A stretch of 64,000 bases of DNA from Candidatus Daviesbacteria bacterium (GTDB lineage Bacteria > Patescibacteriota > Microgenomatia > Daviesbacterales > UBA10151), in contig JAUYKM010000007.1 in assembly GCA_030699125.1 (NCBI GenBank), positions 5,082-69,081 of the forward strand, read 5' to 3'. Shown here in pieces: positions 141-28,205 of this stretch; position 1 is the first letter of the stretch, and the number at the start of each line of letters is the position of its first letter. The notes beneath the pieces were generated by a model. That model had not been told where the DNA came from and did not search any database. It was given only the letters and a program-made list of their open reading frames with translations. Made by a program: the position numbers and the translations under genes.

Positions 141-215
141 GGGCGGTTAGCTCAGCGGTAGAGCACTTATCTGATAAGTAAGGGGTGAATGGTTCGACAC
201 CATTACCGCCCACCA
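141..215 (+). tRNA. tRNA-Ile (anticodon GAU), CCA encoded
   Basis: Manual cloverleaf: acceptor GGGCGGT/ACCGCCC, D arm GCTC-AGCGGTA-GAGC, anticodon arm CTTAT-CTGATAA-GTAAG (GAU), T arm AATGG-TTCGACA-CCATT, then ACCA. Confidence 0.8.
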
Positions 216-328
216 AATTTTCTTGTGATCCTTATGGATCTAAAGTAAGGGGTCCAAGGTATCAATCCCAAGCGCGCCCACCATCAAAAGTGGTAAAAAC
301 TTTTTTGACAGTTAGTTATAATTAAATT

Positions 329-904
329 ATGACTATAGTTGAAGGAGAAGTAGTCGGGTTGTACTTTAAATCAGTAGATTCTGATGAAATCACTACGGGC
401 AATTTCCTTACTTTTGACAAACCAGGTATCTTCGGGAGTGGCGGAAGGATGGATGTAAGGGCAAGTCATTTTTTTCCAACACGTTTGGAAGATTTCAATC
501 CACTTCGCTTCATTGATAGAAGAAGTACTACTCAATGGTGTGCAGTTTCATTTGAAGAGCTTGAAAGACTTGCTCAGGTAAAAGATTTTCGTAACACATT
601 AGAACTGATACCCCATTTGAGGGTTTTCATAAAAGAAAGAAGAATAGAGGCAGGAATTAATGTCTGTATTAAAGGTATGTCAGGCTTAACAGAATTACCA
701 AGAGGAACCAGACTTACTTTCTCTAATGAGAGGTTTTCAAATGACCAGATTCCCGGTCCGGTGATATTAGGTGTTGAGGAACATGAAGAAATTCTGCTTG
801 ATGGAGAAGAAGTATTAAGAGGTATTGCAGGTGTAGTTCACCAGACAGGAAAGATTGCTATAGGGGCAAAAGTTACGGCGGAAATACCTGTGCTCTCCGC
901 CTAA
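329..904 (+). CDS. hypothetical protein (191 aa), no recognisable motif
   Basis: Uninterrupted ORF with no competing ORF on the other strand; immediately followed (6-bp gap) by the next gene; function not recognised. Confidence 0.45.
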   Translation: MTIVEGEVVGLYFKSVDSDEITTGNFLTFDKPGIFGSGGRMDVRASHFFPTRLEDFNPLRFIDRRSTTQWCAVSFEELERLAQVKDFRNTLELIPHLRVFIKERRIEAGINVCIKGMSGLTELPRGTRLTFSNERFSNDQIPGPVILGVEEHEEILLDGEEVLRGIAGVVHQTGKIAIGAKVTAEIPVLSA

Positions 905-909
905 TCCTA

Positions 910-2559
910 ATGAAATCAAACTTAATAGTATTTATATCACTCATTTTGATCTCCATCCCTGCAATCAAAGACCTGTTTATTTCGGGAGGTTTTACTTCTC
1001 ATGATTTAACCCATCATGTGATCCGCCAGATTTCCATGGATAAGCTTTTATCAGAAGGACAATTTCCACCCAGATGGTCAGGGGAATTAAATAATGGGTA
1101 TGGTTATCCGGTTTTTCTATTTAACTATCCGCTGCCAGCCATGGTGGGCGAAATTTCTCATAAGATGGGCCTGGGATATGTGGATTCTGTTAAGGCTGTG
1201 CTTTTTGCCTCCATGATTGGATCAGTTTTGGGAATGTATCTGTTTTTAAATGCACTTCTAGGATCAAAACCATCTGCTTTTTTGGGGGCAATATTTTATC
1301 TTTATGCCCCCTTAAGATTTCTAACTGTTTATGTTTCATCAGCAGTAGGTTCTGCTTTGGCTCTGGGGATTTTACCTTTTGTTTTTTGGAGTTTAGTGGA
1401 GATTTCAAAAGGCAAAAAGTGGGCAAGTTTGGTGGGGGGAGTTAGTCTGGCAGGATTGATCCTTGCCCATAATGTGACAGCCTTAATTTTTGCTCCGGTT
1501 ATCTTGGCCTCTGCTTGGGGGATTGGGGGGATTAGGAAGATTAGGGGGATTGGGATGATGTTTTTTTTGGGATTGGGATTATCTGCCTGGTTTTGGCTAC
1601 CGGCTTTATTTGAGGCTCAATATACTAGATTTGGAGAAGTCTTTGGCAAATTCTACCAGGATCAGTTTCCCTCCCTTTGGCAATTGATCCGTTCTCCCTG
1701 GGGATATGGATTGTCTCATCCTCAAAATCCTGAGAGTGGGGATATGTCCTATCAGCTAGGATTGATTCATATAGGAGTGATGCTGATTCTAGTTGGATTA
1801 GTTTGGGTGATGAAGAGAATAAGGGAGATTAGGGAGATAGGGGGATTTGCTTTGGCTCTGTTTGGGTTAAGTGTTTTTCTAATGCTAAAAATTAGTTTGC
1901 CTCTTTGGGAAAATATCCCATTTCTTTCCATGGTGCAATTTCCTCTAAGGTTTCAGGCCTGGTCTGTTTTCGCAGCCTCTATTGCAGCTGCCCTATTAGT
2001 TAAATATTTACCATTTAAAAAGTTATTAGTCTTAAGTCTTTTGTTTTTAGTCATTTATGCCAATAGAAATCATTGGCATATCAATGAAGTTTTTGCTCCG
2101 GGAGAAAATTATTATTTAAATCTTAAAACAACCTCTACCTCATATGGGGAACATTTGCCTAAGTGGGGGAAGATTATGGATCAGCCTGCAGTAGGAAAGC
2201 TGGAATTTATAAAGGGCCAAGGTGACATTGGCATAATTATGAATAAATCAGATGAAATCGTGGCTGAAGTAGCGGTTGATAGCGGGGGTAAATTGAGGTT
2301 AAATCAAACCTATTTTCCCGGCTGGAATATAGAAATTGACGGACAAAAAACAAATTTTGACTATTTATCTAACCCCGATTTAATCGGGACTGATGGAGAA
2401 AGTTATGGATTGATGACTTTTGATATAGAGGAGGGGATTCATCTAGTCAGGGCCCAATTTAAAAATACCCCTGTCAGGAATTTGGCTGATGGAATAAGTC
2501 TAATCAGTGTGATAGTGTTTTTGTATGCAGGTTATAACAAAAGATTTTATAAAAAGTAA
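910..2559 (+). CDS. polytopic membrane protein, possible GT-C-type glycosyltransferase (N-terminal multi-TM domain + C-terminal soluble domain)
   Basis: About 10 hydrophobic helices in the first 400 aa, Gly-rich loops, soluble C-terminal 150 aa; architecture typical of PMT/ArnT-like enzymes; function inferred only. Confidence 0.5.
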   Translation: MKSNLIVFISLILISIPAIKDLFISGGFTSHDLTHHVIRQISMDKLLSEGQFPPRWSGELNNGYGYPVFLFNYPLPAMVGEISHKMGLGYVDSVKAVLFASMIGSVLGMYLFLNALLGSKPSAFLGAIFYLYAPLRFLTVYVSSAVGSALALGILPFVFWSLVEISKGKKWASLVGGVSLAGLILAHNVTALIFAPVILASAWGIGGIRKIRGIGMMFFLGLGLSAWFWLPALFEAQYTRFGEVFGKFYQDQFPSLWQLIRSPWGYGLSHPQNPESGDMSYQLGLIHIGVMLILVGLVWVMKRIREIREIGGFALALFGLSVFLMLKISLPLWENIPFLSMVQFPLRFQAWSVFAASIAAALLVKYLPFKKLLVLSLLFLVIYANRNHWHINEVFAPGENYYLNLKTTSTSYGEHLPKWGKIMDQPAVGKLEFIKGQGDIGIIMNKSDEIVAEVAVDSGGKLRLNQTYFPGWNIEIDGQKTNFDYLSNPDLIGTDGESYGLMTFDIEEGIHLVRAQFKNTPVRNLADGISLISVIVFLYAGYNKRFYKK

Positions 2560-3496
2560 AAGAGTTTTGCTTCGGGTAGATATTGACGTACCTTTAGAAA
2601 AGGGGAAAGTTATAGAAGATTTTAGATTAAAGGCCCTTCTGCCCACTCTGAGAATATGTCTTGAAAATGCCAGCAGAGTGATAATGATAGGCCATATTGG
2701 TAGACCTCAAGGTAAAGTAGTGGAAGAATTAAGGGTAAGTCTTGTTGTGGATTGGTTAAAAAGCCAGGGATATGAGAGGGTTTTAGGGAGCGGAAAGTTG
2801 AAAGTCTTAGAAAATTTAAGATTTGACCGGCGAGAGGACAGTTTAGATGAGAGTTTTGCCAAAGAATTAGCCTTAAAAGGGGATGTTTTTGTCAATGAAG
2901 CTTTTGCAGCATATCACCAAGCAGTATCTACCACAGTTTTGCCAACTCTTTTGCCTCATGCAGCCGGATTACACTTTGCCAAGGAAGTCAAGGTGTTAAC
3001 TGGCGTCAGAAATAATCCCAAAAAGCCGTTTGTAGTTATTATGGGGGGAGTAAAAGTAAAAGATAAACTTCCTGTAATTGAAGTTTTATCCAAAAAAGCT
3101 GATGCAGTATTGATAGGAGGAAAACTAATTCATGAAATTAAAGAGCAAAATGTGATTTTGTCTCATAATGTGATGGTGGGGAAGTTAAATGAGGATGGGT
3201 TTGATATTTCCTCAGATACTACCGAGTCCTGGAGAAATTTAATAATTGGAGCTGCACAGATTATCTGGAATGGACCAATGGGCAAATTTGAGGATCCTAA
3301 AAATGATCAAACCAAAAAAGTTGCAGAGATTGTGGTGGAATCCGGGGCAGAAACTATTGTTGGTGGGGGAGATATTATTGCTGCGCTAAATCAGGCTGGA
3401 CTTTTAAATAAAATCTCTTTTGTCTCAGTTGGTGGCGGAGCCATGCTAAAATTTTTAGCAGATGGGACCTTGCCAACCATTAAGGCTTTGTCGTAA
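2525..3496 (+). CDS. pgk: phosphoglycerate kinase (short, 323 aa)
   Basis: N-terminal KRVLLRVDIDVPL (PGK substrate-binding signature, RVDFNVP-like); C-terminal VGGGDIIAALNQAGL (hinge GGGD); directly upstream of gap. Confidence 0.75.
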   Translation: MQVITKDFIKSKRVLLRVDIDVPLEKGKVIEDFRLKALLPTLRICLENASRVIMIGHIGRPQGKVVEELRVSLVVDWLKSQGYERVLGSGKLKVLENLRFDRREDSLDESFAKELALKGDVFVNEAFAAYHQAVSTTVLPTLLPHAAGLHFAKEVKVLTGVRNNPKKPFVVIMGGVKVKDKLPVIEVLSKKADAVLIGGKLIHEIKEQNVILSHNVMVGKLNEDGFDISSDTTESWRNLIIGAAQIIWNGPMGKFEDPKNDQTKKVAEIVVESGAETIVGGGDIIAALNQAGLLNKISFVSVGGGAMLKFLADGTLPTIKALS

Positions 3497-3505
3497 TATC
3501 AAAGT

Positions 3506-4522
3506 ATGTTGAAAGTTGCCATTAATGGCTTTGGCAGAATAGGCAGGACTGCTTTTAAGATAGCTTTAGATAAATTTTCCGATCAATTGGAGATTGTGGC
3601 CATAAATGATTTGGGGGATGCTAAAACACTCTCTCATTTACTTAAATATGATTCCAATTATGGTATTTGGAATCATGATATATCAAATGATGAAAAACAT
3701 ATCATAGTAGATCAAAAGCCCTATTTAGTATTACAGGAAAAAGATCCCCAGAACCTGCCATGGAAAGATCTAAACGTGGATGTAGTGATTGAATCAACTG
3801 GCAGGTTCACTGATCAAAAGGGTTCAAAACTGCATCTTCAAGCAGGAGCTAAAAAAGTGGTCATATCTGCTCCGGCCAAAGGGGATGGTAGTTCTGTTCC
3901 CACACTTCTTTTAGGAGTAAATGATGAGAAATATTCCGGTGACGAGATTATTTCCAATTCATCCTGTACTACCAATTGTATTGCTCCTGTTGCCAAAGTA
4001 ATGAGTGATAAATTCGGTATTTTAAAGGCCATGATGACTACTATCCACGCCTATACTCAGGATCAAAACTTGCAGGATGGTCCACATAAAGATTTAAGAA
4101 GAGCCAGAAGCGCTTCACAAAATATAGTCCCCACCTCAACAGGGGCTGCCATCTCCATTACAGAGGTTATTCCTGAACTTAAAGGAAAATTTGATGGGAC
4201 TTCTTTAAGAGTGCCTGTGGCAGTTGGTTCTATCTCTGATTTTACCTTTCTTTTAAAAAGAAAGGTGACTGTGGAGGAAGTTAATCAATCTTTCAAAGAA
4301 GCTGCAGATAGTTCTGAGATGAAAGGAATCTTGGCTGTCACCGAAGATCCTGTTGTTTCATCTGATATAGTAGGCCGTCCAGAATCAGCCATAGTGGATT
4401 TGAGTCTGACTCAAGTAGTGGATGGGGATATGGTCAAAGTCTTTGCCTGGTATGATAATGAATATGGTTATTCTAATAGATTAATTGAACAGGTAATAAA
4501 TGTAGGTAAAGCTAGCGACTAG
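3506..4522 (+). CDS. gap: glyceraldehyde-3-phosphate dehydrogenase
   Basis: MLKVAINGFGRIGR NAD-binding N-terminus; active-site ASCTTNCIAP motif (SNSSCTTNCIAPVAKV); WYDNEYGYSNR C-terminus. Confidence 0.95.
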   Translation: MLKVAINGFGRIGRTAFKIALDKFSDQLEIVAINDLGDAKTLSHLLKYDSNYGIWNHDISNDEKHIIVDQKPYLVLQEKDPQNLPWKDLNVDVVIESTGRFTDQKGSKLHLQAGAKKVVISAPAKGDGSSVPTLLLGVNDEKYSGDEIISNSSCTTNCIAPVAKVMSDKFGILKAMMTTIHAYTQDQNLQDGPHKDLRRARSASQNIVPTSTGAAISITEVIPELKGKFDGTSLRVPVAVGSISDFTFLLKRKVTVEEVNQSFKEAADSSEMKGILAVTEDPVVSSDIVGRPESAIVDLSLTQVVDGDMVKVFAWYDNEYGYSNRLIEQVINVGKASD

Positions 4523-4559
4523 TTGACATTTTCTATTTTAAAATGAGACAATTATCACG

Positions 4560-5165
4560 ATGAGTGCAGAAAGACGTCATGTACCATTTAGAATAGCTGT
4601 AGTTGCAGCACTTGGTTTAGGAGCTGGAAGTTTAGGAACTCTAGCACTACAGAGATCTTTCCAAGAATCTCAACATACTGAGACACAAGCTCAATTTGCT
4701 AAACTTTTGTCAGTAAATGTAGGAGAAGCTAGATCAATCAGTGAATTTTCAGAAGTTTTTGATACTGTCTTTTCGCATTTAGAGAATGGAGGTTTAAGTG
4801 TCCGTTTACCAGATCATCCGCGCTCACTTACTAGTAATACTATTGAGGTAGTTTTTCAAAATGGAGGAATGGTAGATAGATCTTTAGTGACTGAATATAA
4901 ATTGATAAAAGATAGACTGGGACACTCAATCTTACGCCGTCTTCAGGTAACCACTAGAGATTTCGATACTATACATACGAAAGATTATTACCAGTGGTAC
5001 GATAATCAACCAAGCAGTCCCAATACAATGGATATGCAAGAACAAGGTTGGAGGCAACTGACTAGATCATTTACAGAAGAATTTAATACATTTGTAGAAG
5101 AATATAATAAAGATGTAGATCAAAGAGCGGATTATGATTTACATCCGGAGAAGCGTAAAGGTTAA
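4560..5165 (+). CDS. hypothetical protein with N-terminal hydrophobic anchor (201 aa); cargo of an apparent insertion into the gap 3' end
   Basis: ORF with TM-like FRIAVVAALGLGAGSLGTLAL; no known motifs; lies between gap and a displaced diverged copy of the gap 3' end. Confidence 0.5.
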   Translation: MSAERRHVPFRIAVVAALGLGAGSLGTLALQRSFQESQHTETQAQFAKLLSVNVGEARSISEFSEVFDTVFSHLENGGLSVRLPDHPRSLTSNTIEVVFQNGGMVDRSLVTEYKLIKDRLGHSILRRLQVTTRDFDTIHTKDYYQWYDNQPSSPNTMDMQEQGWRQLTRSFTEEFNTFVEEYNKDVDQRADYDLHPEKRKG

Positions 5166-5188
5166 TAGGTATTCCCCAAGAGTGCCAG

Positions 5189-5205
5189 GCTAAATTTATC
5201 CCATT
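5189..5205 (+). repeat. 17-bp direct repeat GCTAAATTTATCCCATT at the upstream border of TA cassette 1
   Basis: Identical 17-mer at 6312-6328 upstream of TA cassette 2. Confidence 0.7.
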
Positions 5206-5213
5206 TTCATATC

Positions 5214-5250
5214 TTGACAAGACGTACGTAAAAGCGTACGCTACACATAA
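5214..5250 (+). promoter_or_regulatory. promoter/operator upstream of TA cassette 1: TTGACA plus tandem CGTACG palindromes and CATAAT
   Basis: TTGACA at 5214-5219; CGTACG-taaaag-CGTACG dyad at 5223-5240; CATAAT at 5245-5250 just before the ATG at 5252. Confidence 0.4.
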
Positions 5251-5251
5251 T

Positions 5252-5572
5252 ATGACTACAATTTCTGCAAGCACAGCCAGAGCTAATTTATATGACTTGA
5301 TCGATCAAGTTGCCTTGTCCGGTAAAAGGGTAGGTATTACCAAAAAGGGAGAATCAAAGGTTGTATTAATAAGCCAAGATGATTTAGATTCTCTCGAAGC
5401 CACTTTAGATGTCATGTCTGATCCAGAACTTATGGAAGCAATCCGTCAAGGTGACGAGGATATTAAAGCAGGAAGAGTACGTGACTGGGAAGATATAAAA
5501 AAGGAACTAGGGTTAGATTCTAAAACTGATGTATCAAGTCAAACTAAACAATCACGCAGAAAAAGATCTTAA
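5252..5572 (+). CDS. type II antitoxin, Phd/YefM family
   Basis: ARANLYDLIDQV...KVVLISQDDLDSLEATLDVMSDPELMEAI, typical Phd/YefM fold signature; paralogous to 6408..6707; overlaps the downstream toxin by 44 nt (C-terminal extension). Confidence 0.8.
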   Translation: MTTISASTARANLYDLIDQVALSGKRVGITKKGESKVVLISQDDLDSLEATLDVMSDPELMEAIRQGDEDIKAGRVRDWEDIKKELGLDSKTDVSSQTKQSRRKRS

Positions 5573-5780
5573 AAAATTAAGCACTCTTTATAAGCAAAAG
5601 GTAGTTAAGTCTCTTAATTTACTAGCTACAAATCCATTTCTGGGGGATAAGATGAGCGGTGAGTTTATTGGGTCTTACAGAATAAAAATTCCTCCTATTA
5701 GAATTATTTACCAAATAGATCATCAAAATAAACTTGTCCAGGTTAGAGCTATTGGCCACAGACAAGGGGTCTATAAATAG
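5529..5780 (+). CDS. type II toxin, RelE/ParE family
   Basis: 83 aa, MYQVKL...YRIKIPPIRIIYQIDHQNKLVQVRAIGHRQ; RelE/ParE-like C-terminal R/H motif; paired with upstream Phd. Confidence 0.8.
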   Translation: MYQVKLNNHAEKDLKKLSTLYKQKVVKSLNLLATNPFLGDKMSGEFIGSYRIKIPPIRIIYQIDHQNKLVQVRAIGHRQGVYK

Positions 5781-5785
5781 TTAAA

Positions 5786-5940
5786 GTCTTTGCCTGGTAT
5801 ATAATTAACCTAAATATTGTAATGGAATTTACTAGAAGAAGTTGGTTAATCATATTTTCTCGCTTCACGCTCGAAAATGATAATGAGTATGGATATTCCA
5901 ACAGACTAATAGAACAAGTTATTAATGTTGGAAAAGCTTG
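5786..5940 (+). pseudogene. displaced, diverged duplicate of the 3' end of gap (encodes ...FAWY / NEYGYSNRLIEQVINVGKA*), split by about 80 bp of unrelated sequence
   Basis: 18/18 identity of aaagtctttgcctggtat with 4439-4456; then about 75% identity of gataatgagtatggatattccaacagactaatagaacaagttattaatgttggaaaagcttga with 4459-4522. Confidence 0.65.
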
Positions 5941-5958
5941 ATCCCGAATAAAAATTAG

Positions 5959-6312
5959 ATGAATCAACATTTAAACTTCTGGAAGAAAGTTCTAGCTATA
6001 TATTTTGCGGAAGTTTTAATCCTTCTTTTACTCTCCTTACTTTTATTATCCGGGATTTTAGGAGAACCTGGAAGAATATTATTATTGACTATTATATTCG
6101 GGTTTATTGGACTCTGGTATAGGGATATTTCTGCTTTACTTGGTATTACCCCCTTTATCTTAAATGGCATTTTTGGCCTTAAATTATCTAGCGATATGAG
6201 TATTATATGGAGAGTTTTATATACTCTTTTTCTCGGTTTAATTATATGGCCTCTGGTATTACTTACCTTCATTTTAGTAGGGAAACAATTAGGATTACTC
6301 CACAGTTACTAG
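5959..6312 (+). CDS. small integral membrane protein (117 aa, 3-4 TM), hypothetical
   Basis: Very hydrophobic ORF; sits between the two TA cassettes. Confidence 0.4.
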   Translation: MNQHLNFWKKVLAIYFAEVLILLLLSLLLLSGILGEPGRILLLTIIFGFIGLWYRDISALLGITPFILNGIFGLKLSSDMSIIWRVLYTLFLGLIIWPLVLLTFILVGKQLGLLHSY

Positions 6313-6328
6313 CTAAATTTATCCCATT
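6312..6328 (+). repeat. 17-bp direct repeat GCTAAATTTATCCCATT at the upstream border of TA cassette 2
   Basis: Identical to 5189-5205. Confidence 0.7.
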
Positions 6329-6365
6329 GACTATCTGTACAGAATTCTGTAATATCATATTGCCC

Positions 6366-6396
6366 TTGTCAAAAATTGTCATTTAGACAATTTTTG
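6366..6396 (+). promoter_or_regulatory. operator/promoter of TA cassette 2: perfect 11-bp inverted repeat CAAAAATTGTC-attta-GACAATTTTTG overlapping TTGTCA
   Basis: Dyad at 6370-6396 immediately upstream of the GTG start at 6408; typical autoregulatory antitoxin operator position. Confidence 0.45.
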
Positions 6397-6407
6397 CAAG
6401 CGATCTC

Positions 6408-6707
6408 GTGCCAAAGAAAAGGGGGGCGCTCCGATTGATAAAAACTTTACCTATTACTGAAGCAAGAGCTAATTTAACAACCCTTGTTAATAGAGCCAAA
6501 AAGAGACTTGATGAATATATAATAACTGTTAATGGCAGGGCTGCAGTTGTTATTATGTCTGCAGATGAATATGAAGGCTGGAAAGAAACCAACGAGATTT
6601 TAGCAGATAAGAAGCTAATGAAAGATATTAAACAAAGTGAGAAAGAGATTGCTGAAGGTAAATGGAAAGATTGGGAAGATGTTAGAAAAGAATTAGGTTG
6701 GAAATGA
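6408..6707 (+). CDS. type II antitoxin, Phd/YefM family (GTG start)
   Basis: TEARANLTTLVNRA...AAVVIMSADEYEGWKETNEILADKKLMKDIKQSEKEIAEGK; homologous to 5252..5572. Confidence 0.85.
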   Translation: MPKKRGALRLIKTLPITEARANLTTLVNRAKKRLDEYIITVNGRAAVVIMSADEYEGWKETNEILADKKLMKDIKQSEKEIAEGKWKDWEDVRKELGWK

Positions 6708-6710
6708 TAG

Positions 6711-6962
6711 ATGTACCGCCTCATTATATCTCCTAGAGCACAAAAGCATTTCAAAGATATTAAAAAAGAGAATCAAGAAGCAGTTAGAATGGCTATTGAA
6801 GATATCAAAGAAGATCCTTTAATAGGTAAACCATTATCTCGTGAGCTGACAGAAAAATTTTCCTATAGAATAGGAGTTTATAGAATATTATATAAAGTTA
6901 ACCAACAAGATAAAATAGTAACTATTTTATCGGCTCGGCACAGAGGTATTGCTTATAATTAA
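6711..6962 (+). CDS. type II toxin, RelE/ParE family
   Basis: 83 aa; YRIGVYRILYKVNQQDKIVTILSARHR; 3-nt spacing from the antitoxin. Confidence 0.85.
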   Translation: MYRLIISPRAQKHFKDIKKENQEAVRMAIEDIKEDPLIGKPLSRELTEKFSYRIGVYRILYKVNQQDKIVTILSARHRGIAYN

Positions 6963-7033
6963 GTCCAAGTTCCTACCTGTAAGTTCTTCCACCCATTTTT
7001 TAAGAAAATGTTACACTATTACTAGAAAATCTT

Positions 7034-7603
7034 TTGATGAAAGATAAACTGCTCTTGGTAATTATTTTAATAACAGTATTTTTTCTGCTCATAGCAGTAG
7101 GGATAGCCATCTATATTTTCTATAATCCAACATACGATCAGAGCAAGCTAAGATTTATTAAAAATTTACCAATTGCCAGTCGGTTTTTCTCAAGAAATGT
7201 CATGTTTTTATCTACTTCAGGAACAGAATATCAAATTGGAGATGAGATCCCTGTTCGGATTTTAGTAAAGGTAGGTGATTCATCAAATCTATTTGTTACC
7301 AAGATTAAATTTGACAATCAAATATTAGATATGACCAGAATAGATACAGAAGAGACTTTTATAAAATTGTGGGTAGAAAGATATATTGGTGAGGATGAAA
7401 TCTCGTTGGTGGGAGGTGTAGTGAATCCAGGATATGTCACTAAAGCTGAAGGAGAATTGATGGCAACTGTCTATTTTAAAGCTATATCTTTGGGCAAGCC
7501 TAGGGTAATTCTTGATAATAAATCTGCTATCTTTAGGAACGCTGATAATGTTAATATATTGGAGGCACAGGAAAGTTTAACTCTAATAGTTACTGGAAAA
7601 TGA
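7034..7603 (+). CDS. membrane-anchored cohesin-like domain protein
   Basis: N-terminal TM helix; YQIGDEIPVRILVKV...ATVYFKAISLGKPRVIL beta-sandwich pattern resembling cohesin; paralogous to the N-half of the next gene; ATGA overlap with it. Confidence 0.5.
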   Translation: MMKDKLLLVIILITVFFLLIAVGIAIYIFYNPTYDQSKLRFIKNLPIASRFFSRNVMFLSTSGTEYQIGDEIPVRILVKVGDSSNLFVTKIKFDNQILDMTRIDTEETFIKLWVERYIGEDEISLVGGVVNPGYVTKAEGELMATVYFKAISLGKPRVILDNKSAIFRNADNVNILEAQESLTLIVTGK

Positions 7604-8490
7604 AGAATTTATTAGATCGCTATTTCGTAAATTTTGTAAATATTGATAAAAGACTAAAAATAACCATCTTACTTTCTGCTTTGGGATTGGTGATTTTTCT
7701 CATTATTGTTCTAACTGCCCCTTTTGGTGATGAAATTTTTTCCCGTCTTTATCCAAAGCCATTTTCCAGAGCTCTGTCTGAACCAATTACTCCTAAATCT
7801 TCTTACGAACTTATTACCTCTGCTGACTCCTATGAAATAGGGGATCTAATACCAGTAGAGATCGTTGTCCACTCAGATTTAGAAGCAGCCAATCTTTTTA
7901 AAGCTAAAATAAATTTTGATCCAACACTTTTATCTTTTGAGAGTATTGCTTCTACCTCAGCTTTTATTAACAATTGGGCAGAGCAGTATGGAGATAATAG
8001 CTTGGGAGAAGTATCTTTGGTAGGAGGAGTCCCTAATCCGGGTTTTCTGTCTCTTGTCGATGATAATCCGGTGATGACAACTGTTTATTTTAGAGTTTTA
8101 AATGAAGGTACTGTTAATCTAACTTTTGATTTACAAACTACTATGTATAGAAATTCCGACAACGCTCCTATTCAAGTTTCTGCCAATGGTAAAGGAATAG
8201 GTTTGTCCAGGAAAAAGACTCCCACACCATCTCCGACAGCCTCACCTATACCCACCGCAACTCCCATTCCAACATCCAGTCCCACTGCTTCACCGACACC
8301 TAAAGCAGGGGATGGTAATAATGATGGGATAATAGATTTAGTAGATCTGTCCATACTTTTTTCTGATTTCAATAAAACCTCTGGTTTTAGAGAGGCAATT
8401 GATTTAAATAGTGATGGAATCATCAATACTTTTGACTTTTCCTTTATGAGGCTTAAATTAATTGAGGAAGGTGTGATAAGAGAGAGTTGA
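7600..8490 (+). CDS. membrane-anchored cohesin-like domain + Pro/Thr/Ser linker + type I dockerin-like tandem Ca-binding repeats
   Basis: TM helix; cohesin-like core (YEIGDLIPVEIVVHSD...TVYFRVLNEG); TPTPSPTASPIPTATPIPTSSPTASPTP linker; DGNNDGIIDLVDLSILF ... DLNSDGIINTFDFSFM = two DxNxDGxID dockerin loops. Confidence 0.6.
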   Translation: MKNLLDRYFVNFVNIDKRLKITILLSALGLVIFLIIVLTAPFGDEIFSRLYPKPFSRALSEPITPKSSYELITSADSYEIGDLIPVEIVVHSDLEAANLFKAKINFDPTLLSFESIASTSAFINNWAEQYGDNSLGEVSLVGGVPNPGFLSLVDDNPVMTTVYFRVLNEGTVNLTFDLQTTMYRNSDNAPIQVSANGKGIGLSRKKTPTPSPTASPIPTATPIPTSSPTASPTPKAGDGNNDGIIDLVDLSILFSDFNKTSGFREAIDLNSDGIINTFDFSFMRLKLIEEGVIRES

Positions 8491-8515
8491 CAAGCATTTA
8501 ATACTCTGCTAAACT
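8487..8515 (+). promoter_or_regulatory. candidate sigma70-like promoter (TTGACA-17-TAAACT) upstream of tRNA-Ala/23S/5S
   Basis: TTGACA at 8487-8492, 17-nt spacer, TAAACT at 8510-8515; about 185 nt upstream of tRNA-Ala. Confidence 0.3.
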
Positions 8516-8700
8516 TATTTTCAGTGATAATTTCACAAATAATGAGAAGCAACGCAACCATAACTTAACCCTTTCGCGCTAAGGTCTTCCAAGGTGCGGA
8601 AGATTAAGCCTTAGCGTTGTATCCCTCACAAAACAATTTACAATTTTTAATTTTTCAATTTTCAATGATTTGATTGAGGATTGAAAACTGGATCTGAGAT

Positions 8701-8773
8701 GGGCCCGTAGTTCAGCTGGTAGAACATCTCATTTGCAATGAGAAGGTAAGCGGTTCGAGCCCGCTCGGGTCCA
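8701..8773 (+). tRNA. tRNA-Ala (anticodon UGC), G3:U70 identity pair, no encoded CCA
   Basis: Acceptor GGGCCCG/CGGGTCC with G3-U70; anticodon arm TCTCA-TTTGCAA-TGAGA; T arm AGCGG-TTCGAGC-CCGCT. Confidence 0.9.
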
Positions 8774-10916
8774 CTTTGCACCTTGAAATGTGAATACGTA
8801 ACCGCCGGAGGCGAGTCTCGCCAAAGGCGGAATTTAGGAAGGCTAATGATGGGACGTACCGTTCTGGTACATTCCGTCACAGCAAAAAATACTCAACATT
8901 AATGCATACGGTGGATGCCTAGGTCGAAAGTACCGATGAAGGACGTGCTAAGCTGCGATAAGCTTTGGGGAGCTGCTAAAAAGCTTTGATCCAAAGATTT
9001 CCGAATAGAGTAATCAGTCCGATTTATCGGATACTCTTTACTGAATTCATAGGTAAAGAGAGGGTACGTGCCGAACTGAAACATCTAAGTAAGCACAGGA
9101 AAAGAAATCAAACGAGATTCCCTAAGTAGCGGCGAGCGAAAAGGGAACAGCCTAAACCCCGATTTAATCGGGGTGTTGCGGGACCACAATATCTGACTGA
9201 TGAAGATAGAAGAAAACTCTGGAAAGAGTTGCCAAAGAAGGTGACAGCCCTGTAATCGAAATTAACATCAGCGGTAGTGGATTCCCAAGTAACTCAGGAC
9301 ACGTGAAATTCTGAGTGAATCTGGGGCGACCATGCTCTAAGGCTAAATATGCTTTCGGACCGATAGTGAACTAGTACCGCAAGGGAAAGGTGAAAAGAAG
9401 AGGTTTAACCTCAGTGAAATAGTACCTGAAACCGTATGTTGACAAGCAGTGGAAGTCCGCCTACATCTGTAAAGTTGTGGTGGACAACCGCGTGCCTATT
9501 GAAGAATGAACCGGTGAGTTATCATGTATTCTTAGTTTAAGCCTCTTTGAGGTGGAAGCGCAGTGAAAGCGAGGGTTAATTGCCCGATATAGAGAATGCA
9601 TGTTAGACCCGAAACCGAGTGAGCTATCCATGTCCAGGGTGAACCCCGTCGAAAGACGGGAGGAGGCCCGAACCCGTAACTGTAGCAATAGTTTGGGAAG
9701 AGATGTGGTTAGAGGTGATATGCCAAACGAACTCGGAGATAGCTGGTTCTCCCCGAAATATATTTAGGTATAGCCGTCCAATGGTGTCTAGAGGTAGAGC
9801 ACTGGCTCGAATCCTCAGTCGCAAGACCGAGGTTCGATTCAAACTCCGAATGCTAGAAACACTAAATTGGACGAGTCAGTCCGATCCGGCTAAGCGGAGC
9901 GGGCCTGAGGGAAACAACCCAGATCAACAGCTAAGGTCCCTAATTGTAAGTTAAGTGTTAAAGGAAGTTATAATCCTTAGACAGCCAGGAAGTTGGCTTA
10001 GAAGCAGCCACCTTTTAAAGATAGCGTAACAGCTCGCTGGTCTACTACGGATTGTAGCGCCGACAATGAACCGGGGCTAAACTTACAACCGAAGCTTTGG
10101 ATTCCGCCGTAAGGCGGAGTGGTAGGGGAGCGTCCTGATTGGCATGAAGCTGTGCTGTAAAGCATGGTGGACTAATCAGGAGTGAGAATGCCGGTATGAG
10201 TAGCGTATTGACGTGAGAAACGTCATCGCCGAATGCCCAAGGTTTTCCATGCAACGTTAATCGGCGTGGAGTTAATCGGTCCTAAGGTGAGGCCAATAGG
10301 CGTAACCGATGGAGAACAGGCTAAAATTCCTGTATTGAGATTGTTCTGACAAGTTCTGATGTAGGCCCCGCAAGGGGCACATATCAGGAGCTTTCAAGGG
10401 TGGACGAAGTAGGATTTCTTGATCCCGCATTGCGGGGTTTAAATAGCAAGTTAGTGGAAATAGGCAAAACCGTTTCCATAAGTCGGAACGTAACACTCAT
10501 TAATTGTGTGAACGTTCCGTCTTAAAAATGCAAGCTATGATGACGTAAGCAAGTAAAATTCTGTTTCCAAGAAAAGACTCGTGAAGGAGAATGATTTTAA
10601 CCGTACCGTAAACCGACACAGGTGGGCGAGTTGAGTATACAAAGGCGATCGGGAGAACTATCCTTAAGGAACTCGGCAACAAAAGCTGGACGTAACTTTG
10701 GGAGATGTCCTGCCATGCACCATACGGTGCGTGGCTACAACAAATGACGCTAAGCGACTGTTTAACAAAAACACAGGTCCCTGCTAAATCGAAAGATGAT
10801 GTATAGGGGCTGACACCTGCCCAGTGCCAGTAATTTAAAATTCGGGATGACCCGCAAGGTGAGTCCTGGGTCTAAGATCTGGTGAACGGCAGCAGTAACT
10901 ATAACTGTTCTATGGT

Positions 10917-11568
10917 TTTGGGAATTTCAAAGCCTTAGATGGTGGTGTGTTTTTTAATCTGACTATATGCTGGAATATCTGAGTATCCTATGCTACTATG
11001 GTAATAACTACACATAGTTATGCCAAGTAAAAATGCATTAGGTGCAGACAATCAGCAGGAAAGGCTTAGGATCTCAAGTTGGATAGTTGGTTTTGTTGAT
11101 GGAGAAGGGTGCTTTTCAGTTTCTATCTTTAAAAATAGAACAACCAGGAGTGGATTTCAGGTAATGCCTGAATTTGTGGTTACACAAGGCCAGAAAAGTC
11201 TAAACGTTTTAGAAACTATTAAAGACTTTTTTGGATGTGGAGCGATCTATGTAAATAGGCGCTATGATAATCACAAAGAAGATATCTACCGTTATTGTGT
11301 TCGTGCTACAAAAGATTTAAACGAAAAAATAATCCCTTTTTTCAAAGCAAACAAACTATTAACTTATAAGAAGAATGATTTTGAAACTTTCTGTAAAGCA
11401 GTGGAGATGAAATTATTAAATCTTCATTTAACAGCAGAAGGTTTGCAAAAATTTAGAGATCTTAAGAATCCTCAGAGACTATACGTCAGACCCTAAAAGG
11501 GAAGATATAGTCCGGACTATATAGCGATATATAGATGTGACGATTAGATTGTCACAGTAACATAATCG
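10917..11568 (+). mobile_element. group I intron at 23S position L1931 (E. coli numbering, approximate) carrying a LAGLIDADG homing-endonuclease ORF
   Basis: 5' exon ends ...CTATGGT (U); intron ends ...AATCG (terminal G); 3' exon resumes AGCGAAGTTCCTTGTCTGG (equivalent to E. coli AGCGAAAUUCCUUGUCGGG). Confidence 0.8.
11020..11496 (+). CDS. LAGLIDADG homing endonuclease, single-motif (homodimeric I-CreI-like) type
   Basis: WIVGFVDGEGCFSVSI motif; 158 aa; located inside the rRNA intron. Confidence 0.85.
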   Translation: MPSKNALGADNQQERLRISSWIVGFVDGEGCFSVSIFKNRTTRSGFQVMPEFVVTQGQKSLNVLETIKDFFGCGAIYVNRRYDNHKEDIYRYCVRATKDLNEKIIPFFKANKLLTYKKNDFETFCKAVEMKLLNLHLTAEGLQKFRDLKNPQRLYVRP

Positions 11569-11688
11569 AGCGAAGTTCCTTGTCTGGTGAGTTCAGACCC
11601 GCACGAAAGGTAGAACGACTTAGCGACTGTCTTGAGGATAGACCCGGCGAAATTGCAATGGCTGTGAAGATGCGGCCTTCCCATACTT

Positions 11689-11726
<38 letters not shown>

Positions 11727-12069
11727 CCTGATTTAAAGCTTTGATTGTATAGCGTAGGAGGGACCCGCCAACATTCTTTCGTAAGAAAGTTTGGGCGGGG
11801 ACAATGAAACACCTCTCTTTTGAATCTTTAAATCTCACCCCAACCCTTATAAAAACAGGGAAGGGGACAAGGTCTGGCGGGCAGTTTGACTGGGGCGGTC
11901 CCCTCCAAAAGAGTAACGGAGGGGTACAAAGGTACACTTAGCGCGTAAGGAAATCGCGCTTTAAGCGTAAAGGTATATAGTGTGCTTAATAGCAAGACAT
12001 ACAAGTCGAGCTAGTGCGAAAGCAGGTCTTAGTGATCCCCTGTTTGCAAATGGATGCGGCAGGGCTTAT

Positions 12070-12106
<37 letters not shown>

Positions 12107-12143
12107 GCCCTACAGTCCACAAGGACGGCAAGGTTCGGCACCT

Positions 12144-12486
12144 CAACTAAAATCGGGGGTCGGTAGGAGTAATCCTATTAGAATTGTTATCAACATTAGA
12201 AAGTCTTTTTGTAAATATTTACTAGCTAAAATCGGTGAACTCCAATCCGCTATATGCGGAGGATAACACCGAGGGAACCATGAAGTAGATAATCTCACTT
12301 CATGGCCCGTAACGACTTAATCTTTAGAGAGATTGGATTCAAGGTTCCAGATAATCTGGGTTGAAACTTGAATGAGCAAATGCTCTTCAACTTTATAAAT
12401 AAACTTGAATAAAAGGCTAGCTCCTATAAAGTTAATAGGATGAAGGTATAGTCTGATCCTGTAAGAAATTACAGAAAATTCGACAG
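12144..12486 (+). mobile_element. ORF-less group I intron at 23S position L2500 (peptidyl-transferase loop)
   Basis: 5' exon GGCACCU | intron (343 nt, contains the P7-like GAAGGTATAGTC and ends in G) | 3' exon CGATGTCGGCTCATC. Confidence 0.65.
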
Positions 12487-12643
12487 CGATGTCGGCTCAT
12501 CGCAGCGCGGGGCTGAAGCAGGTCCCAAGCGTCTGGCTGTTCGCCAGTTAAAGCGGTACGCGAGCTGGGTTCAGAGCGTCGTAAGACAGCTCGGACTCTA
12601 TCCAGTATGGGCGTTTTGATTCTTGAGGGGAGTTGTCTCTAGT

Positions 12644-13021
12644 AAGCAATTGCTACTGTCCGCCGAAAGGCGGACTGACAAATTGGCTAATAACGGTGAA
12701 GCCCTCTTGACTTTGGGTTTAGTTTGGTTCTATGCTAAATCTATAACAAAAAAGTCAATGGGTAATACCGTGGGAAGACGATTCATGTGTCATTCTGAGG
12801 CGAAGCCGAAGAATCTCTGAACTAGTTTCAGATGTATCTAGAATAAATCTAGAGATCCTTCACTACGTTCAGGATGACAAAGAATTTGTCCCCGTAACGA
12901 CTGATATATGAGGTACCAGATAATCTGGAAGTAAACTCATATTATATGCCAATTCCGCAGCACATTATGGTGGCGGAAAAGATATAGTCTGATTCTCTAA
13001 GAAATTAGAGTTAACAAAATG
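12644..13021 (+). mobile_element. ORF-less group I intron inside the sarcin-ricin loop region of 23S (after U of AGU|ACGAGAGGACC), paralogous to the L2500 intron
   Basis: 5' exon ...TTGTCTCTAGT | 378-nt intron (GATATAGTC P7-like; shares CCAGATAATCTGG and ATAGTCTGAT.CT.TAAGAAATTA.AG blocks with the L2500 intron; ends in G) | ACGAGAGGACCGAG. Confidence 0.6.
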
Positions 13022-28138: not shown

Positions 28139-28205
28139 ATTCTTAAATATACATTTAAATGTACACTTTGTCAAGAGTTTGGATTGTGTTAAACTCACTC
28201 AAACT

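What the first reader, a model, noticed from the sequence alone, without database searches (positions are those of the whole stretch)
4439..5940. Integration scar: a TA-carrying cassette inserted into the 3' end of gap, leaving a displaced diverged copy of the gap terminus
The last 85 nt of gap (4439-4522) reappear at 5786-5940, with 18/18 identity followed by about 75% identity that still encodes NEYGYSNRLIEQVINVGKA*.

Between them lie a 201-aa hypothetical gene and a Phd/RelE module. An element that brings its own replacement 3' end for the target gene is the hallmark of site-specific integrative elements. No integrase remains, so this is probably a decayed island remnant.
Basis: seen in the sequence. 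Interest (0 to 1): 0.55.

Follow-up and report, generated by a model that had tools for sequence, protein, structure and literature searches.

The report
Toxin-antitoxin cassette scar at gap end
A small toxin-antitoxin gene cassette has been spliced into the tail of the essential glycolysis gene gap in an uncultured Daviesbacteria-like bacterium, leaving a spare copy of the gene's tail behind. The same thing has happened repeatedly in related bacteria with no integration enzyme in sight, so it illustrates how selfish gene pairs spread rather than being the wreck of a large genomic island.

Summary
The repeat is real. gap 4430-4513 recurs downstream as 5777-5800 (22/24, with 18/18 exact), then a 76-78 nt unrelated spacer, then 5877-5941 (51/62 identical, own stop). 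All 12 codon differences are synonymous, so the two termini come from two different functional gap genes, not from an in-place duplication.

Between them lie two promoter-led cassettes: an orphan 201-aa ORF and an intact Phd/ParE module.

The pattern recurs. Of 131 distinct Patescibacteria gap loci, 10 carry a displaced gap terminus. The insert is a toxin-antitoxin module of four different families, or only 80-200 nt. No insert exceeds about 1.4 kb and none encodes a recombinase.

The Phd/ParE cassette moves horizontally: 83-87% nt identity between lineages whose gap, pgk and a neighbouring gene are 66-72% identical. It has sharp ends, a -35 TTGACA box and a 24-nt gap-derived arm.

The site is the interval between gap and the tRNA-Ala/23S promoter. 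It is 245 nt and empty in relative L002, and 4.2 kb in this window. gap itself is mosaic.

Best reading: cassette stacking at a hotspot, anchored on gap homology. A decayed integrase island is less likely. The recombination enzyme is not established.

The parts
3506..4522 (+). gap (GAPDH) coding sequence, 338 aa, intact
   Evidence: Pfam Gp_dh_N and Gp_dh_C. 84% aa identity to the closest relatives. Mosaic against L001: nt 270-565 are 92% identical versus 74% outside, with 0 of 300 permutations reaching this.
4430..4513 (+). c1: the functional gap 3' terminus that is repeated downstream. The exact 18-nt tract is 4436-4453.
   Evidence: the repeat finder families D1 and D6; nhmmer profile positions 1-89.
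4523..4552 (+). Promoter-like site (TTGACA-18-GACAAT with a TG) that starts immediately after the gap stop codon. It marks the left edge of the ORF201 cassette.
   Evidence: 10 of 12 matches. In relatives the gap stop overlaps or abuts a -35 TTGACA in the same way.
4560..5165 (+). Orphan 201-aa ORF. By eye it has an N-terminal hydrophobic segment, which would suggest a membrane-anchored or secreted protein. Function unknown.
   Evidence: No Pfam or PHROG family. Only itself among 5.8 billion proteins. One 36%-identical tblastn match, downstream of a Phd/ParE pair in L092.
5164..5205 (+). D2a: 42-nt repeat (17-nt exact core GCTAAATTTATCCCATT at 5189-5205) that also precedes the second Phd/ParE module
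   Evidence: family D2, 74%. The core recurs downstream of gap in L083 and L015. No significant RNA fold, z = -0.35.
5214..5251 (+). Promoter/operator of the Phd/ParE cassette: -35 TTGACA at 5214-5219 and two palindromic CGTACG hexamers at 5223-5228 and 5235-5240. This is the exact left edge of the mobile cassette.
   Evidence: Conserved in 11 cassettes, with homology beginning at TTGACA.
5252..5572 (+). Phd/YefM-family antitoxin, 106 aa
   Evidence: PF02604, E 2.6e-16. 106 relatives, the closest at 91-94%.
5529..5780 (+). ParE/RelE-family toxin, 83 aa, full length, overlapping the antitoxin gene by 44 nt
   Evidence: PF05016, E 1.2e-11, profile positions 1-88 of 89; phrog_1213 RelE-like.
5777..5800 (+). 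c2 block A: 24-nt gap-derived arm (22/24, 18/18 exact) fused to the ParE stop codon. It is the right end of the mobile cassette.
   Evidence: The same junction follows the ParE stop in L163, L165, L001 and L090, and shortened remnants follow it in L004 and L162.
5801..5878 (+). Spacer interrupting c2 exactly at the WY|DNE codon boundary. It is 78 nt counted in frame, has no stop codon, and its origin is unresolved.
   Evidence: No other copy in the window or in the loci held at that point (L001-L165). No Rfam match. Fold z = -0.04. 9% of shuffles are stop-free.
5877..5941 (+). c2 block B: displaced gap terminus encoding DNEYGYSNRLIEQVINVGKA plus stop. 82% identical to c1, with synonymous differences only.
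5959..6312 (+). 117-aa ORF, hydrophobic by eye, of the older cassette layer
   Evidence: ORF list. No Pfam or PHROG family.
6287..6328 (+). D2b: second copy of the 42-nt repeat, directly upstream of the second Phd/ParE promoter
   Evidence: promoter-like TTGACT-17-TAATAT at 6327-6355.
6408..6962 (+). Second Phd/ParE module (older layer), with TGTACA-type operator half-sites in its promoter
   Evidence: Pfam. An 81-82% identical module in L120 lies between two gap termini there.
6963..6986 (+). Possible third-generation remnant of the gap arm, directly after the ParE2 stop (tentative)
   Evidence: 13 of 24 matches in fixed register. Only 169 of 63,976 window positions do as well. The local alignment is not significant.
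8487..8774 (+). Right frame of the hotspot: promoter-like TTGACA-17-TAAACT (8487-8515) and tRNA-Ala (8701-8774), followed by 23S rRNA
   Evidence: The same leader and promoter are conserved in L001, L002 and L090.

Best explanation
The interval between the gap stop codon and the promoter of the tRNA-Ala/23S rRNA unit is a cassette-accumulating hotspot in Microgenomates.

What this window holds. There are at least two layers of cassettes. The newer layer is c1, then the orphan ORF201, repeat D2a, and Phd/ParE type 1 with its 24-nt gap-derived arm. The older layer is the displaced terminus (block B), then ORF117, repeat D2b, and Phd/ParE type 2.

Shown:
- The two gap termini are xenologous, meaning they come from different functional gap genes.
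- The Phd/ParE cassette is a discrete unit of about 590 bp. It runs from its -35 TTGACA box to the 24-nt arm ATGGTYAAAGTCTTTGCCTGGTAT just after the ParE stop.
- This unit has moved horizontally between lineages.
- Displaced termini form a decay series: intact, then frameshifted, then truncated to 9-37 nt.

Inferred:
- Integration is driven by recombination on gap homology. The crossover falls in or near the longest tract that stays identical between lineages, TTTGCCTGGTATGATAATGA.
- The second joint forms at the -35 box.
- The work is done by host recombination functions acting on DNA from related lineages, either as a Campbell-type single crossover or as a double crossover in which both arms pair with gap. 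No cassette-encoded integrase is involved.
- The arm regenerates a fresh-looking displaced terminus in each new host.
- The toxin-antitoxin pair then prevents loss of the insert by recombination between the two direct repeats, because cells that lose it are killed. This would explain why nearly every insert that survives is a toxin-antitoxin module.
For: (1) Xenology. c1 and c2 differ almost only at synonymous sites in 8 loci: 12 synonymous and 0 non-synonymous codons in the window, P <= 2e-4 in every locus.

(2) Horizontal transfer. Type-1a cassettes are 83-87% nt identical between L001, L004 and L090. In those same lineages gap, pgk and orf549 are 66-72% identical and the 23S 5' part is 80-86% identical. 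The antitoxin and gap similarity orders disagree.

(3) Discrete cassette ends. Three cassettes about 92% identical (window, L163, L162) sit in unrelated flanks. Homology starts at TTGACA and ends in block A. The same holds for type 1a.

(4) Recurrence. 10 of 131 distinct loci carry a displaced terminus, and 23 of 131 carry Phd/ParE within 2.5 kb. The cargo is Phd/ParE type 1, Phd/ParE type 2, MNT/HepT, or PIN/RHH on the opposite strand.

(5) No recombinase in any insert, nor among the window ORFs tested by Pfam or PHROGs. No copy on viral contigs.

(6) Homologous recombination acts at this locus. gap is mosaic, with nt 270-565 at 92% versus 74% outside and 0 of 300 permutations matching.

(7) Empty site and conserved frame. 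In L002, gap runs into tRNA-Ala/23S after 245 nt. Across 10 loci the interval ranges from 245 nt to 4.2 kb.

(8) Decay series. There is a frameshift in L120. Truncated remnants occur in L006, L135, L163, L004 and L162.

(9) The 3' parts of the displaced copies in L001 and L090 differ by 32%, including a TCA/AGT serine codon switch, while their cassettes are 87% identical. These parts are therefore not carried by the cassette (counted by eye from those sequences).

(10) Published context. Small toxin-antitoxin islets that lack mobile-element genes are thought to spread by homologous recombination at flanking core genes (PMC13617665, read).
Against: - The left edge of the cassette is sharp, at the same -35 hexamer in 6 of 6 comparisons. 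Long-arm homologous recombination alone does not predict this. It fits a short specific site or microhomology joining.
- The arm is only 24 nt, and the identical tract between c1 and c2 is 11-27 nt. That is short for RecA-type recombination.
- Which terminus is native is inconsistent between loci. c2 looks native in L001 and L091. c1 looks native in L090 and L165. The window is undecided.
- The 76-78 nt spacer inside c2 is unexplained.
- No relative closer than 84% aa identity was found. No same-species empty site, excision product or circular form has therefore been seen.
- Competence and recombination genes of this organism were not examined.
Confidence: 0.6

Rival explanations
1. A site-specific integrative element (tyrosine or serine recombinase island) integrated at an att core in the gap 3' end and brought a replacement terminus. 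The integrase and most of the island were later deleted. A variant is a mini-element mobilised by a recombinase supplied in trans.
For: - The target gene's 3' end is restored and there is an exact 18-nt shared tract.
- The same target is used repeatedly.
- The ParE-stop/arm junction is conserved across diverged cassette subtypes, like an attP arm. The left edge is sharp at one hexamer.
- A XerC/D-like integrase gene lies 3 kb from a related cassette at a non-gap locus, L166.
Against: - There is no integrase in any of the 10 loci with a displaced terminus, and the inserts are at most about 1.4 kb.
- There is none among the window ORFs tested.
- Four unrelated toxin-antitoxin families, in both orientations, use the same target.
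- The boundaries of the displaced copy vary from profile position 1 to about 60.
- The gap gene itself is mosaic.
Confidence: 0.2
2. Two unrelated events. First, a sequence-specific small transposable element (MITE- or PATE-like) hits the WY|DNE site of a gap terminus. Second, the damaged terminus is by-passed by import of a new terminus. On this reading the displaced copy marks gene repair, not cassette homing.
For: - Displaced copies are interrupted or begin at the same WY|DNE boundary in the window, L026/L127, L057/L116 and L126.
- The L057 and L116 spacers share a hairpin-rich 64-nt end that is 98% identical, while the flanking gap ends are visibly more divergent by eye. Upstream of it they keep a TGGTAYGATA fragment.
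- Small insertions of 2 and 6 nt sit at the same spot in L120 and L127.
- The window spacer is in frame and free of stop codons.
Against: - The window spacer has no other copy anywhere and no significant structure.
- The model does not explain cassette transfer or the arm fused to ParE.
- L001, L090 and L165 have uninterrupted displaced copies.
Confidence: 0.1
3. Metagenome mis-assembly. Two strains' gap regions were joined through the conserved 18-27 nt tract, creating a false tandem arrangement.
For: - The window comes from a metagenome-assembled genome.
- The ParE/c2 junction of this genome has no independent assembly.
- The Logan contig L161 starts within the 18-nt tract and ends inside ParE.
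Against: - The same architecture appears in independent assemblies from different projects and assemblers. L001, L081 and L082 are identical. L090, L165 (Logan), L120 and L091 show it too.
- An 18-nt overlap seems too short to drive an assembly join at the usual k-mer sizes (my own reasoning, not tested).
- Block A is fused to the ParE stop in several cassettes.
Confidence: 0.05
4. In-place tandem duplication of the gap terminus, with genes inserted between the copies later and the downstream copy decaying.
For: - Direct repeats flank the insert.
- Some relatives have two copies with only 80-200 nt in between.
Against: - The differences between copies are 12 of 12 synonymous in the window and strongly biased in all 8 loci. 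A decaying copy would collect non-synonymous changes and indels.
- The cassette is horizontally transferred.
Confidence: 0.03

Closest known systems
Integrative elements that restore the 3' end of their target gene (islands and prophages in tRNA or tmRNA genes, and in some protein-coding genes)
   Same: - The insertion lies inside the 3' end of a conserved gene.
- The gene stays intact.
- A second copy of the terminus bounds the far side of the insert.
- A short identical tract is shared by both copies.
- Relatives have an empty site.
   Different: - No integrase appears in this locus or in any of the related loci.
- The inserts are 0.08-1.4 kb rather than several kb.
- The cargo is a single toxin-antitoxin pair or a small ORF.
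- The extent of the duplicated segment varies between events.
- Several layers are stacked at one site.
Recombinase-free islets exchanged by homologous recombination between conserved flanks: Neisseria 'minimal mobile elements' (found in the search, e.g. PMC1797815 and PMC3787668; the characterisation is from my own knowledge, as those papers were not opened) and toxin-antitoxin islets in Photorhabdus (PMC13617665, read)
   Same: - The flanks are conserved (gap on one side, tRNA-Ala/23S on the other).
- Different cassettes occupy the same site in different lineages.
- There are no mobility genes.
- The flanking gene is a recombination mosaic.
- Toxin-antitoxin modules are the typical cargo.
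   Different: - Classical flank-to-flank exchange leaves no duplicate of the flank.
- Here one arm of the cassette is itself a 24-nt piece of the left flank, so a displaced gene terminus is created.
- The lineages involved are only 66-72% identical in the housekeeping genes compared (gap, pgk, orf549), far more diverged than strains of one species.
Integron cassette arrays
   Same: - Cassettes are stacked in one orientation.
- The newest appears to lie next to a fixed entry point, the gap stop / -35 junction.
- Toxin-antitoxin modules are among the cassettes.
- A short repeat (D2) follows two successive ORFs.
   Different: - No integron integrase was found.
- Each cassette has its own promoter.
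- D2 shows no attC-like hairpin (fold z about 0).
- The boundaries are -35 boxes and gap fragments.
Homology-facilitated illegitimate recombination in naturally transformable bacteria (from my own knowledge; not checked in the literature here)
   Same: - One joint lies in homologous sequence (gap).
- The other lies at a very short shared motif (TTGACA, or a few nt after the ParE stop).
   Different: - The same illegitimate joint recurs in many lineages. It was therefore formed once and then propagated, or it is not illegitimate at all.
- Competence of these organisms was not tested.
Type II Phd/YefM-ParE/RelE toxin-antitoxin modules
   Same: - Domain content and gene order match, and the two genes overlap.
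- The promoter holds paired palindromic hexamers. It is CGTACG-N6-CGTACG here. The second module has TGTACA-type sites, like the E. coli yefM-yoeB operator as I recall it.
   Different: Nothing unusual in the module itself. What is unusual is its gap-derived arm and its preferred landing site.

Membership tests
Type II toxin-antitoxin module, Phd/YefM antitoxin with ParE/RelE toxin | Antitoxin with a Phd/YefM domain encoded directly upstream of the toxin | tested here: met
   PF02604, E 2.6e-16, residues 1-73; the genes overlap by 44 nt.
Type II toxin-antitoxin module, Phd/YefM antitoxin with ParE/RelE toxin | Full-length toxin of the ParE/RelE fold | tested here: met
   PF05016, E 1.2e-11, profile positions 1-88 of 89; phrog_1213 RelE-like.
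Type II toxin-antitoxin module, Phd/YefM antitoxin with ParE/RelE toxin | Toxicity of the toxin, neutralisation by the antitoxin, and autoregulation at the palindromic operator | not testable with these tools
   Only the sequence signature is present: CGTACG at 5223-5228 and 5235-5240, between the -35 box and the start codon.
Site-specific integrative element that restores the target's 3' end | Integrase or recombinase gene within the element | tested here: not met
   No such domain in any ORF of 83 aa or more between gap and tRNA-Ala. None in 10 further window ORFs. None in the inserts of the related loci that were scanned or inspected.
Site-specific integrative element that restores the target's 3' end | Direct repeats (attL/attR) sharing an identical core, with the target gene kept intact | tested here: met
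   18/18 exact tract; gap is intact at 338 aa.
Site-specific integrative element that restores the target's 3' end | One fixed crossover core used by all insertions at the site | tested here: inconclusive
   The longest identical tract always covers TGGTATGA. That is also the most conserved part of gap. The left boundaries of the displaced copies vary from profile position 1 to about 60.
Site-specific integrative element that restores the target's 3' end | Empty site in relatives | tested here: met
   L002 has a single gap terminus and 245 nt to tRNA-Ala. It is only a relative at 82% aa identity. No same-species genome was found.
Islet exchanged by homologous recombination between conserved flanks (minimal-mobile-element type) | Conserved flanking sequences with different cassettes at the same site in different lineages | tested here: met
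   The frame gap ... promoter - tRNA-Ala - 23S is conserved in 10 loci, with 245 nt to 4.2 kb of differing content in between.
Islet exchanged by homologous recombination between conserved flanks (minimal-mobile-element type) | Evidence of homologous recombination in the flanks | tested here: met
   gap is mosaic between the window and L001, with 0 of 300 permutations reaching the observed contrast.
Islet exchanged by homologous recombination between conserved flanks (minimal-mobile-element type) | DNA uptake and RecA-dependent integration | not tested
   Competence and recombination genes were not surveyed. A RadA-like ORF at 14570-15874 was seen in passing.
Integron | Integron integrase plus attC hairpin sites at cassette ends | tested here: not met
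   No integrase was found. The D2 repeat does not fold better than shuffles, z = -0.35 and +0.25.

The most novel reading that the evidence does not exclude
The Phd/ParE unit is a recombinase-free homing cassette.

- Its two ends are a promoter -35 box and a 24-nt fragment of a universally conserved housekeeping gene.
- With these ends it uses host recombination to land in the gap terminus of distantly related lineages.
- Each landing regenerates a pair of direct repeats.
- The toxin blocks repeat-mediated loss of the insert.
- Repeated landings build an integron-like stack of promoter-led cassettes at the gap / rRNA-promoter junction of Microgenomates.
Probability: 0.3. Interest if true: 0.7.

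Novelty: new variant of a known kind. Interest (0 to 1): 0.5.

Why it matters
How toxin-antitoxin modules get into chromosomes without transposases or integrases is still debated. So is how gene flow works in the tiny, recombinase-poor genomes of Candidate Phyla Radiation bacteria.

This locus gives a concrete and repeatedly used entry point. The cassette edges are defined to the nucleotide and there is a visible series of old scars. It suggests that a short piece of a conserved gene can serve as a portable homology arm, and that the toxin protects the insert from repeat-mediated deletion.

Both ideas can be tested with reads from existing samples and with simple recombination assays. If the enzyme turns out to be an ordinary integrase acting in trans, the finding is a routine integration site.

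Tried and rejected
- **Same-species empty site.** Exact-protein look-ups for gap, ParE and ORF117 found nothing. The genome and metagenome scans gave no relative above 84% aa identity.
- **Which terminus is native.** Whole-terminus identity ranking was uninformative. Comparing the 3' parts with the eight nearest gap bodies gave opposite answers in different loci, and 77% versus 74% for the window.
- **Phage or plasmid origin.** The operator pattern and the antitoxin have no match in the viral contig collection, and PHROGs gave only generic toxin-antitoxin families. Plasmid collections were not searched.
- **RNA element in the spacer or D2.** No Rfam match at E <= 1 and fold z-scores near 0.
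- **Spacer as a multi-copy mobile element.** No second copy in the window or in the loci held at that point (L001-L165).
- **Integron attC reading of D2.** Rejected, because there is no hairpin and no integrase.
- **Intein or intron reading of the in-frame 78-nt spacer.** Rejected as far too short, with no Rfam intron hit. Its in-frame, stop-free state is only marginally unusual: 9% of shuffles, times about one third for the length being a multiple of three.
- **ORF201.** No homologue beyond itself. It is unrelated to the 201-aa ORF that precedes a related cassette downstream of fusA in L170.
- **Duplicated fusA terminus around that L170 cassette.** None found, so the duplication is not a general property of the cassette at other sites.
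- **3' part of gap in cassette-sharing lineages.** It is not clearly more similar than elsewhere in the gene.
- **Literature.** One malformed search returned nothing.

Full report
**1. Observation**

The gap gene occupies 3506-4522 (Pfam Gp_dh_N and Gp_dh_C). Its last 90 nt recur downstream, but the second copy is split.

- Block A: 5777-5800 matches 4430-4453 at 22/24. The 18-mer AAAGTCTTTGCCTGGTAT is exact (4436-4453 = 5783-5800).
- Spacer: 76-78 nt unrelated to gap follow.
- Block B: 5877-5938 matches 4452-4513 at 51/62 (82%) and ends in its own stop codon at 5939-5941.

A nucleotide profile built from 80 gap 3' ends finds block B at E about 1e-8. With the spacer removed, the second copy (c2) encodes exactly the same 27 residues as the functional end (c1). 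All 12 differing codons are synonymous. Random substitutions would give about 8.6 non-synonymous codons, and none of 5000 simulations was as extreme.

Three corrections apply: coordinates shift by about 3 nt, identity is 82% rather than 75%, and there is an unmentioned spacer.

**2. What lies between the copies**

- A promoter-like site starts immediately after the gap stop (TTGACA at 4523).
- An orphan 201-aa ORF follows. It has no Pfam or PHROG family and no relative other than itself among 5.8 billion proteins.
- Next comes a 42-nt repeat (D2a) whose 17-nt core also precedes the second toxin-antitoxin module.
- Then comes a Phd/ParE module with its own promoter. The promoter has a -35 TTGACA at 5214-5219 and two palindromic CGTACG hexamers.
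- Downstream of c2 lie a 117-aa ORF that looks hydrophobic by eye, D2b and a second Phd/ParE module.
- None of the window ORFs tested by Pfam or PHROGs has an integrase, transposase or phage structural domain. By eye, no other ORF in the 64-kb list looks like one.
- G+C content shows no sharp step at the cassette edges. It drifts from about 0.38 to about 0.31 across the region.

**3. Genomic frame**

The window comes from a Daviesbacteria-like member of the Microgenomates. The block from pgk and gap to the cassettes lies between tRNA-Ile (141-215) and tRNA-Ala/23S/5S (8701-13454).

Relatives share this frame: 16S, pgk, gap, a variable interval, a conserved promoter-like TTGACA-17-TAAACT, a leader, tRNA-Ala, then 23S.

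In L002 (82% aa identity in gap) the gap tail runs straight into that -35 box. tRNA-Ala follows after 245 nt, with one gap terminus and no toxin-antitoxin module. This is the empty-site configuration. In other relatives the interval is 0.5-2.3 kb. In the window it is 4.2 kb.

**4. The scar is recurrent**

Scanning 160 gap loci (147 distinct by the last 300 nt of gap) found a displaced gap terminus downstream of gap in 10 of the 131 distinct loci that have at least 600 nt of downstream sequence. Window-like Phd/ParE lay within 2.5 kb in 23 of those 131. One further case, L165, came from a look-up of the antitoxin.

Inserts between the two termini:

| Insert | Loci |
|---|---|
| Phd/ParE type 1 | L001 (= L081 = L082), L090, L165, window |
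| Phd/ParE type 2, 81-82% identical to the window's second module | L120 |
| MNT/HepT pair | L126 |
| PIN plus ribbon-helix-helix pair on the opposite strand | L091 |
| Only 80-200 nt | L026/L127, L057/L116 |

No insert exceeds about 1.4 kb and none encodes a recombinase. In all eight loci tested the two termini differ mainly at synonymous sites.

The displaced copies form a decay series:

- Intact: window, L001, L090, L091, L165.
- A 2-nt frameshift: L120.
- Fragments of 9-37 nt: L006, L135, L163, L004, L162.

A possible third remnant follows the window's second ParE, with 13 of 24 matches in fixed register and p about 0.003. It is tentative.

**5. The cassette moves horizontally and has defined ends**

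Type-1a cassettes of L001, L004 and L090 are 83-87% nt identical. In those lineages gap, pgk and a neighbouring gene are 66-72% identical, and even the 5' part of 23S is only 80-86% identical. The similarity orders also conflict. The window's gap is closest to L001, but its antitoxin is closest to L010.

For the window's own subtype, cassettes about 92% identical occur in three unrelated flanks (window, L163, L162). Homology begins at the -35 TTGACA. It ends a few nucleotides into, or at the end of, block A, which is fused to the ParE stop codon. The same edges hold for type 1a.

Block A is therefore carried by the cassette. Short pieces resembling it follow the ParE stop even at non-gap sites: downstream of a Band_7 gene in L164, of fusA in L170, and in L166. 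These matches are short and only suggestive.

By contrast, the 3' parts of the displaced copies in L001 and L090 differ by about a third. The differences include a serine codon-family switch, although the cassettes are 87% identical. Those parts do not travel with the cassette.

**6. Mechanism**

*Shown:* two xenologous termini; a discrete, horizontally mobile cassette bounded by a -35 box and a gap-derived arm; a conserved hotspot frame with an empty site; and no recombinase in any insert.

*Also shown:* gap itself is a recombination mosaic. Between the window and L001, nt 270-565 are 92% identical versus 74% outside, with 0 of 300 permutations matching. Other pairs show no such peak.

*Inferred:* integration uses host recombination on gap homology. 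The crossover falls in or next to the tract that stays identical between lineages (TTTGCCTGGTATGATAATGA; 11-27 nt identical between c1 and c2 in each case). The second joint forms at the -35 box.

Once a cassette is flanked by a gap body on the left and a gap arm on the right, both flanks can pair with any recipient's gap. Each transfer then recreates a displaced terminus made from recently functional sequence. This would explain why the scars look intact although the ParE/arm junction is old enough to be shared by subtypes whose toxins are only about 40% identical.

The two direct repeats should promote deletion of the insert. A toxin-antitoxin pair would counter-select that loss. This fits the near-exclusive toxin-antitoxin cargo. 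That step is inference.

A recent paper on Photorhabdus proposes that small toxin-antitoxin islets without mobile-element genes spread by homologous recombination at flanking core genes (PMC13617665).

**7. What does not fit**

- The left edge is sharp at the same hexamer in six of six comparisons. This points to a short specific site or microhomology rather than long-arm recombination. A recombinase acting in trans is therefore not excluded.
- The native copy cannot be assigned. c2 looks native in L001 and L091. c1 looks native in L090 and L165. The window is undecided at 77% versus 74%.
- The spacer inside c2 is unexplained.
  - It sits exactly at the WY|DNE codon boundary, where the displaced copies of L026/L127, L057/L116 and L126 begin and where L120 and L127 carry small insertions.
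  - It is 78 nt in frame with no stop. That occurs in 9% of shuffles, and a length divisible by three is a further one-in-three chance.
  - It has no other copy and no significant fold.
  - Either a small sequence-specific element hit a neutral copy of its target, or the resident gap once carried an in-frame insertion there.

**8.

Correct: the insertion into the gap terminus, the foreign replacement end and the absence of an integrase. Not supported: the inference that this is a decayed integrase-borne island. The data fit cassette stacking at a hotspot, driven by gap homology, better.

It does not revive the tandem-duplication idea, because those copies are also xenologous.

**9. Comparison with known systems and novelty**

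The toxin-antitoxin module itself is ordinary. The locus behaves like a recombinase-free islet between conserved flanks. It also has the outward look of a 3'-end-restoring integrative element and the stacking of an integron. It fails the integrase criterion of both of the latter.

I rate it a new variant of a known kind. Interest is 0.5. It would rise if reads or experiments show that the 24-nt arm is sufficient for homing and that the toxin stabilises the repeats.

Noticed in passing
window 141-13454: The rRNA unit is split by protein genes. tRNA-Ile (141-215) is separated from tRNA-Ala/23S/5S (8701-13454) by 8.5 kb that holds a 549-aa membrane protein, pgk, gap, two toxin-antitoxin modules and two cohesin/dockerin-like ORFs. 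Relatives show 16S upstream of the same block (for example L001 16S at 3049-5354 and 23S from 12922).
   Followed up: partly
window 8889-13249 (ORF 11020-11496): The 23S rRNA gene spans 4361 nt for a 2925-position model, so it carries about 1.4 kb of insertions. One of them encodes a LAGLIDADG homing endonuclease (PF00961, E 9e-26). Group I introns are detected in the 23S of relatives L002 and L010.
   Followed up: partly
window 3506-4522 versus L001 10001-11020: The gap gene is a recombination mosaic. Nucleotides 270-565 are 92% identical to L001 and the rest 74% (0 of 300 permutations). Other pairs have their high-identity segments elsewhere in the gene.
   Followed up: yes
L057 2651-2805 and L116 7008-7208: A hairpin-rich non-coding element lies between the two gap termini. 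Its last 64 nt are 98% identical between two lineages whose flanking gap ends are visibly more divergent by eye. The upstream hairpins differ by paired changes (CCCGC..GCGGG versus CCAGC..GCTGG). Upstream of it a TGGTAYGATA fragment of gap is retained. It may be a small mobile or structured element that targets the WYD|NE site.
   Followed up: partly
window 5189-5205 and 6312-6328; L083 about 2141; L015 about 2544: A 17-nt motif GCTAAATTTATCCCATT lies within a 42-nt repeat. It follows two successive small ORFs and precedes both toxin-antitoxin promoters. Its 14-nt core (TAAATTTATCCCAT in L015, CTAAATTTATCCCA in L083) also occurs downstream of gap in two relatives. No significant fold. Function unknown.
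   Followed up: partly
window 5801-5878: The spacer that interrupts the displaced gap terminus is exactly 26 codons in the gap reading frame and has no stop codon, so 5777-5941 reads as one 54-codon open frame. This would fit a resident gap that once carried an in-frame insertion, but it could be chance (about 3%).
   Followed up: partly
window 43716-63964 (minus strand): Two adjacent giant ORFs of 3804 and 2945 aa fill the last 20 kb of the window. They were not analysed.
   Followed up: no
window 27511-28198 (minus strand) and 31594-32493: There are further toxin-like genes: a PIN_3 protein with a small upstream ORF, and a PIN-TRAM protein. This genome carries many toxin-antitoxin-type genes.
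   Followed up: no
L170 3348-4517; L164 1-1815: Related Phd/ParE cassettes also sit downstream of fusA (L170) and of a Band_7 gene (L164). The same unannotated ORF family, about 201 aa, is present upstream at both loci: directly before the cassette in L170, and before the Band_7 gene in L164. No duplicated fusA terminus was found.
   Followed up: partly
L016, L024, L057, L061, L030, L022 (gap matches of 356-374 aa): Several relatives have gap genes 20-35 codons longer than usual. The extra residues are not in the last 45 residues. Their position and nature were not examined.
   Followed up: no
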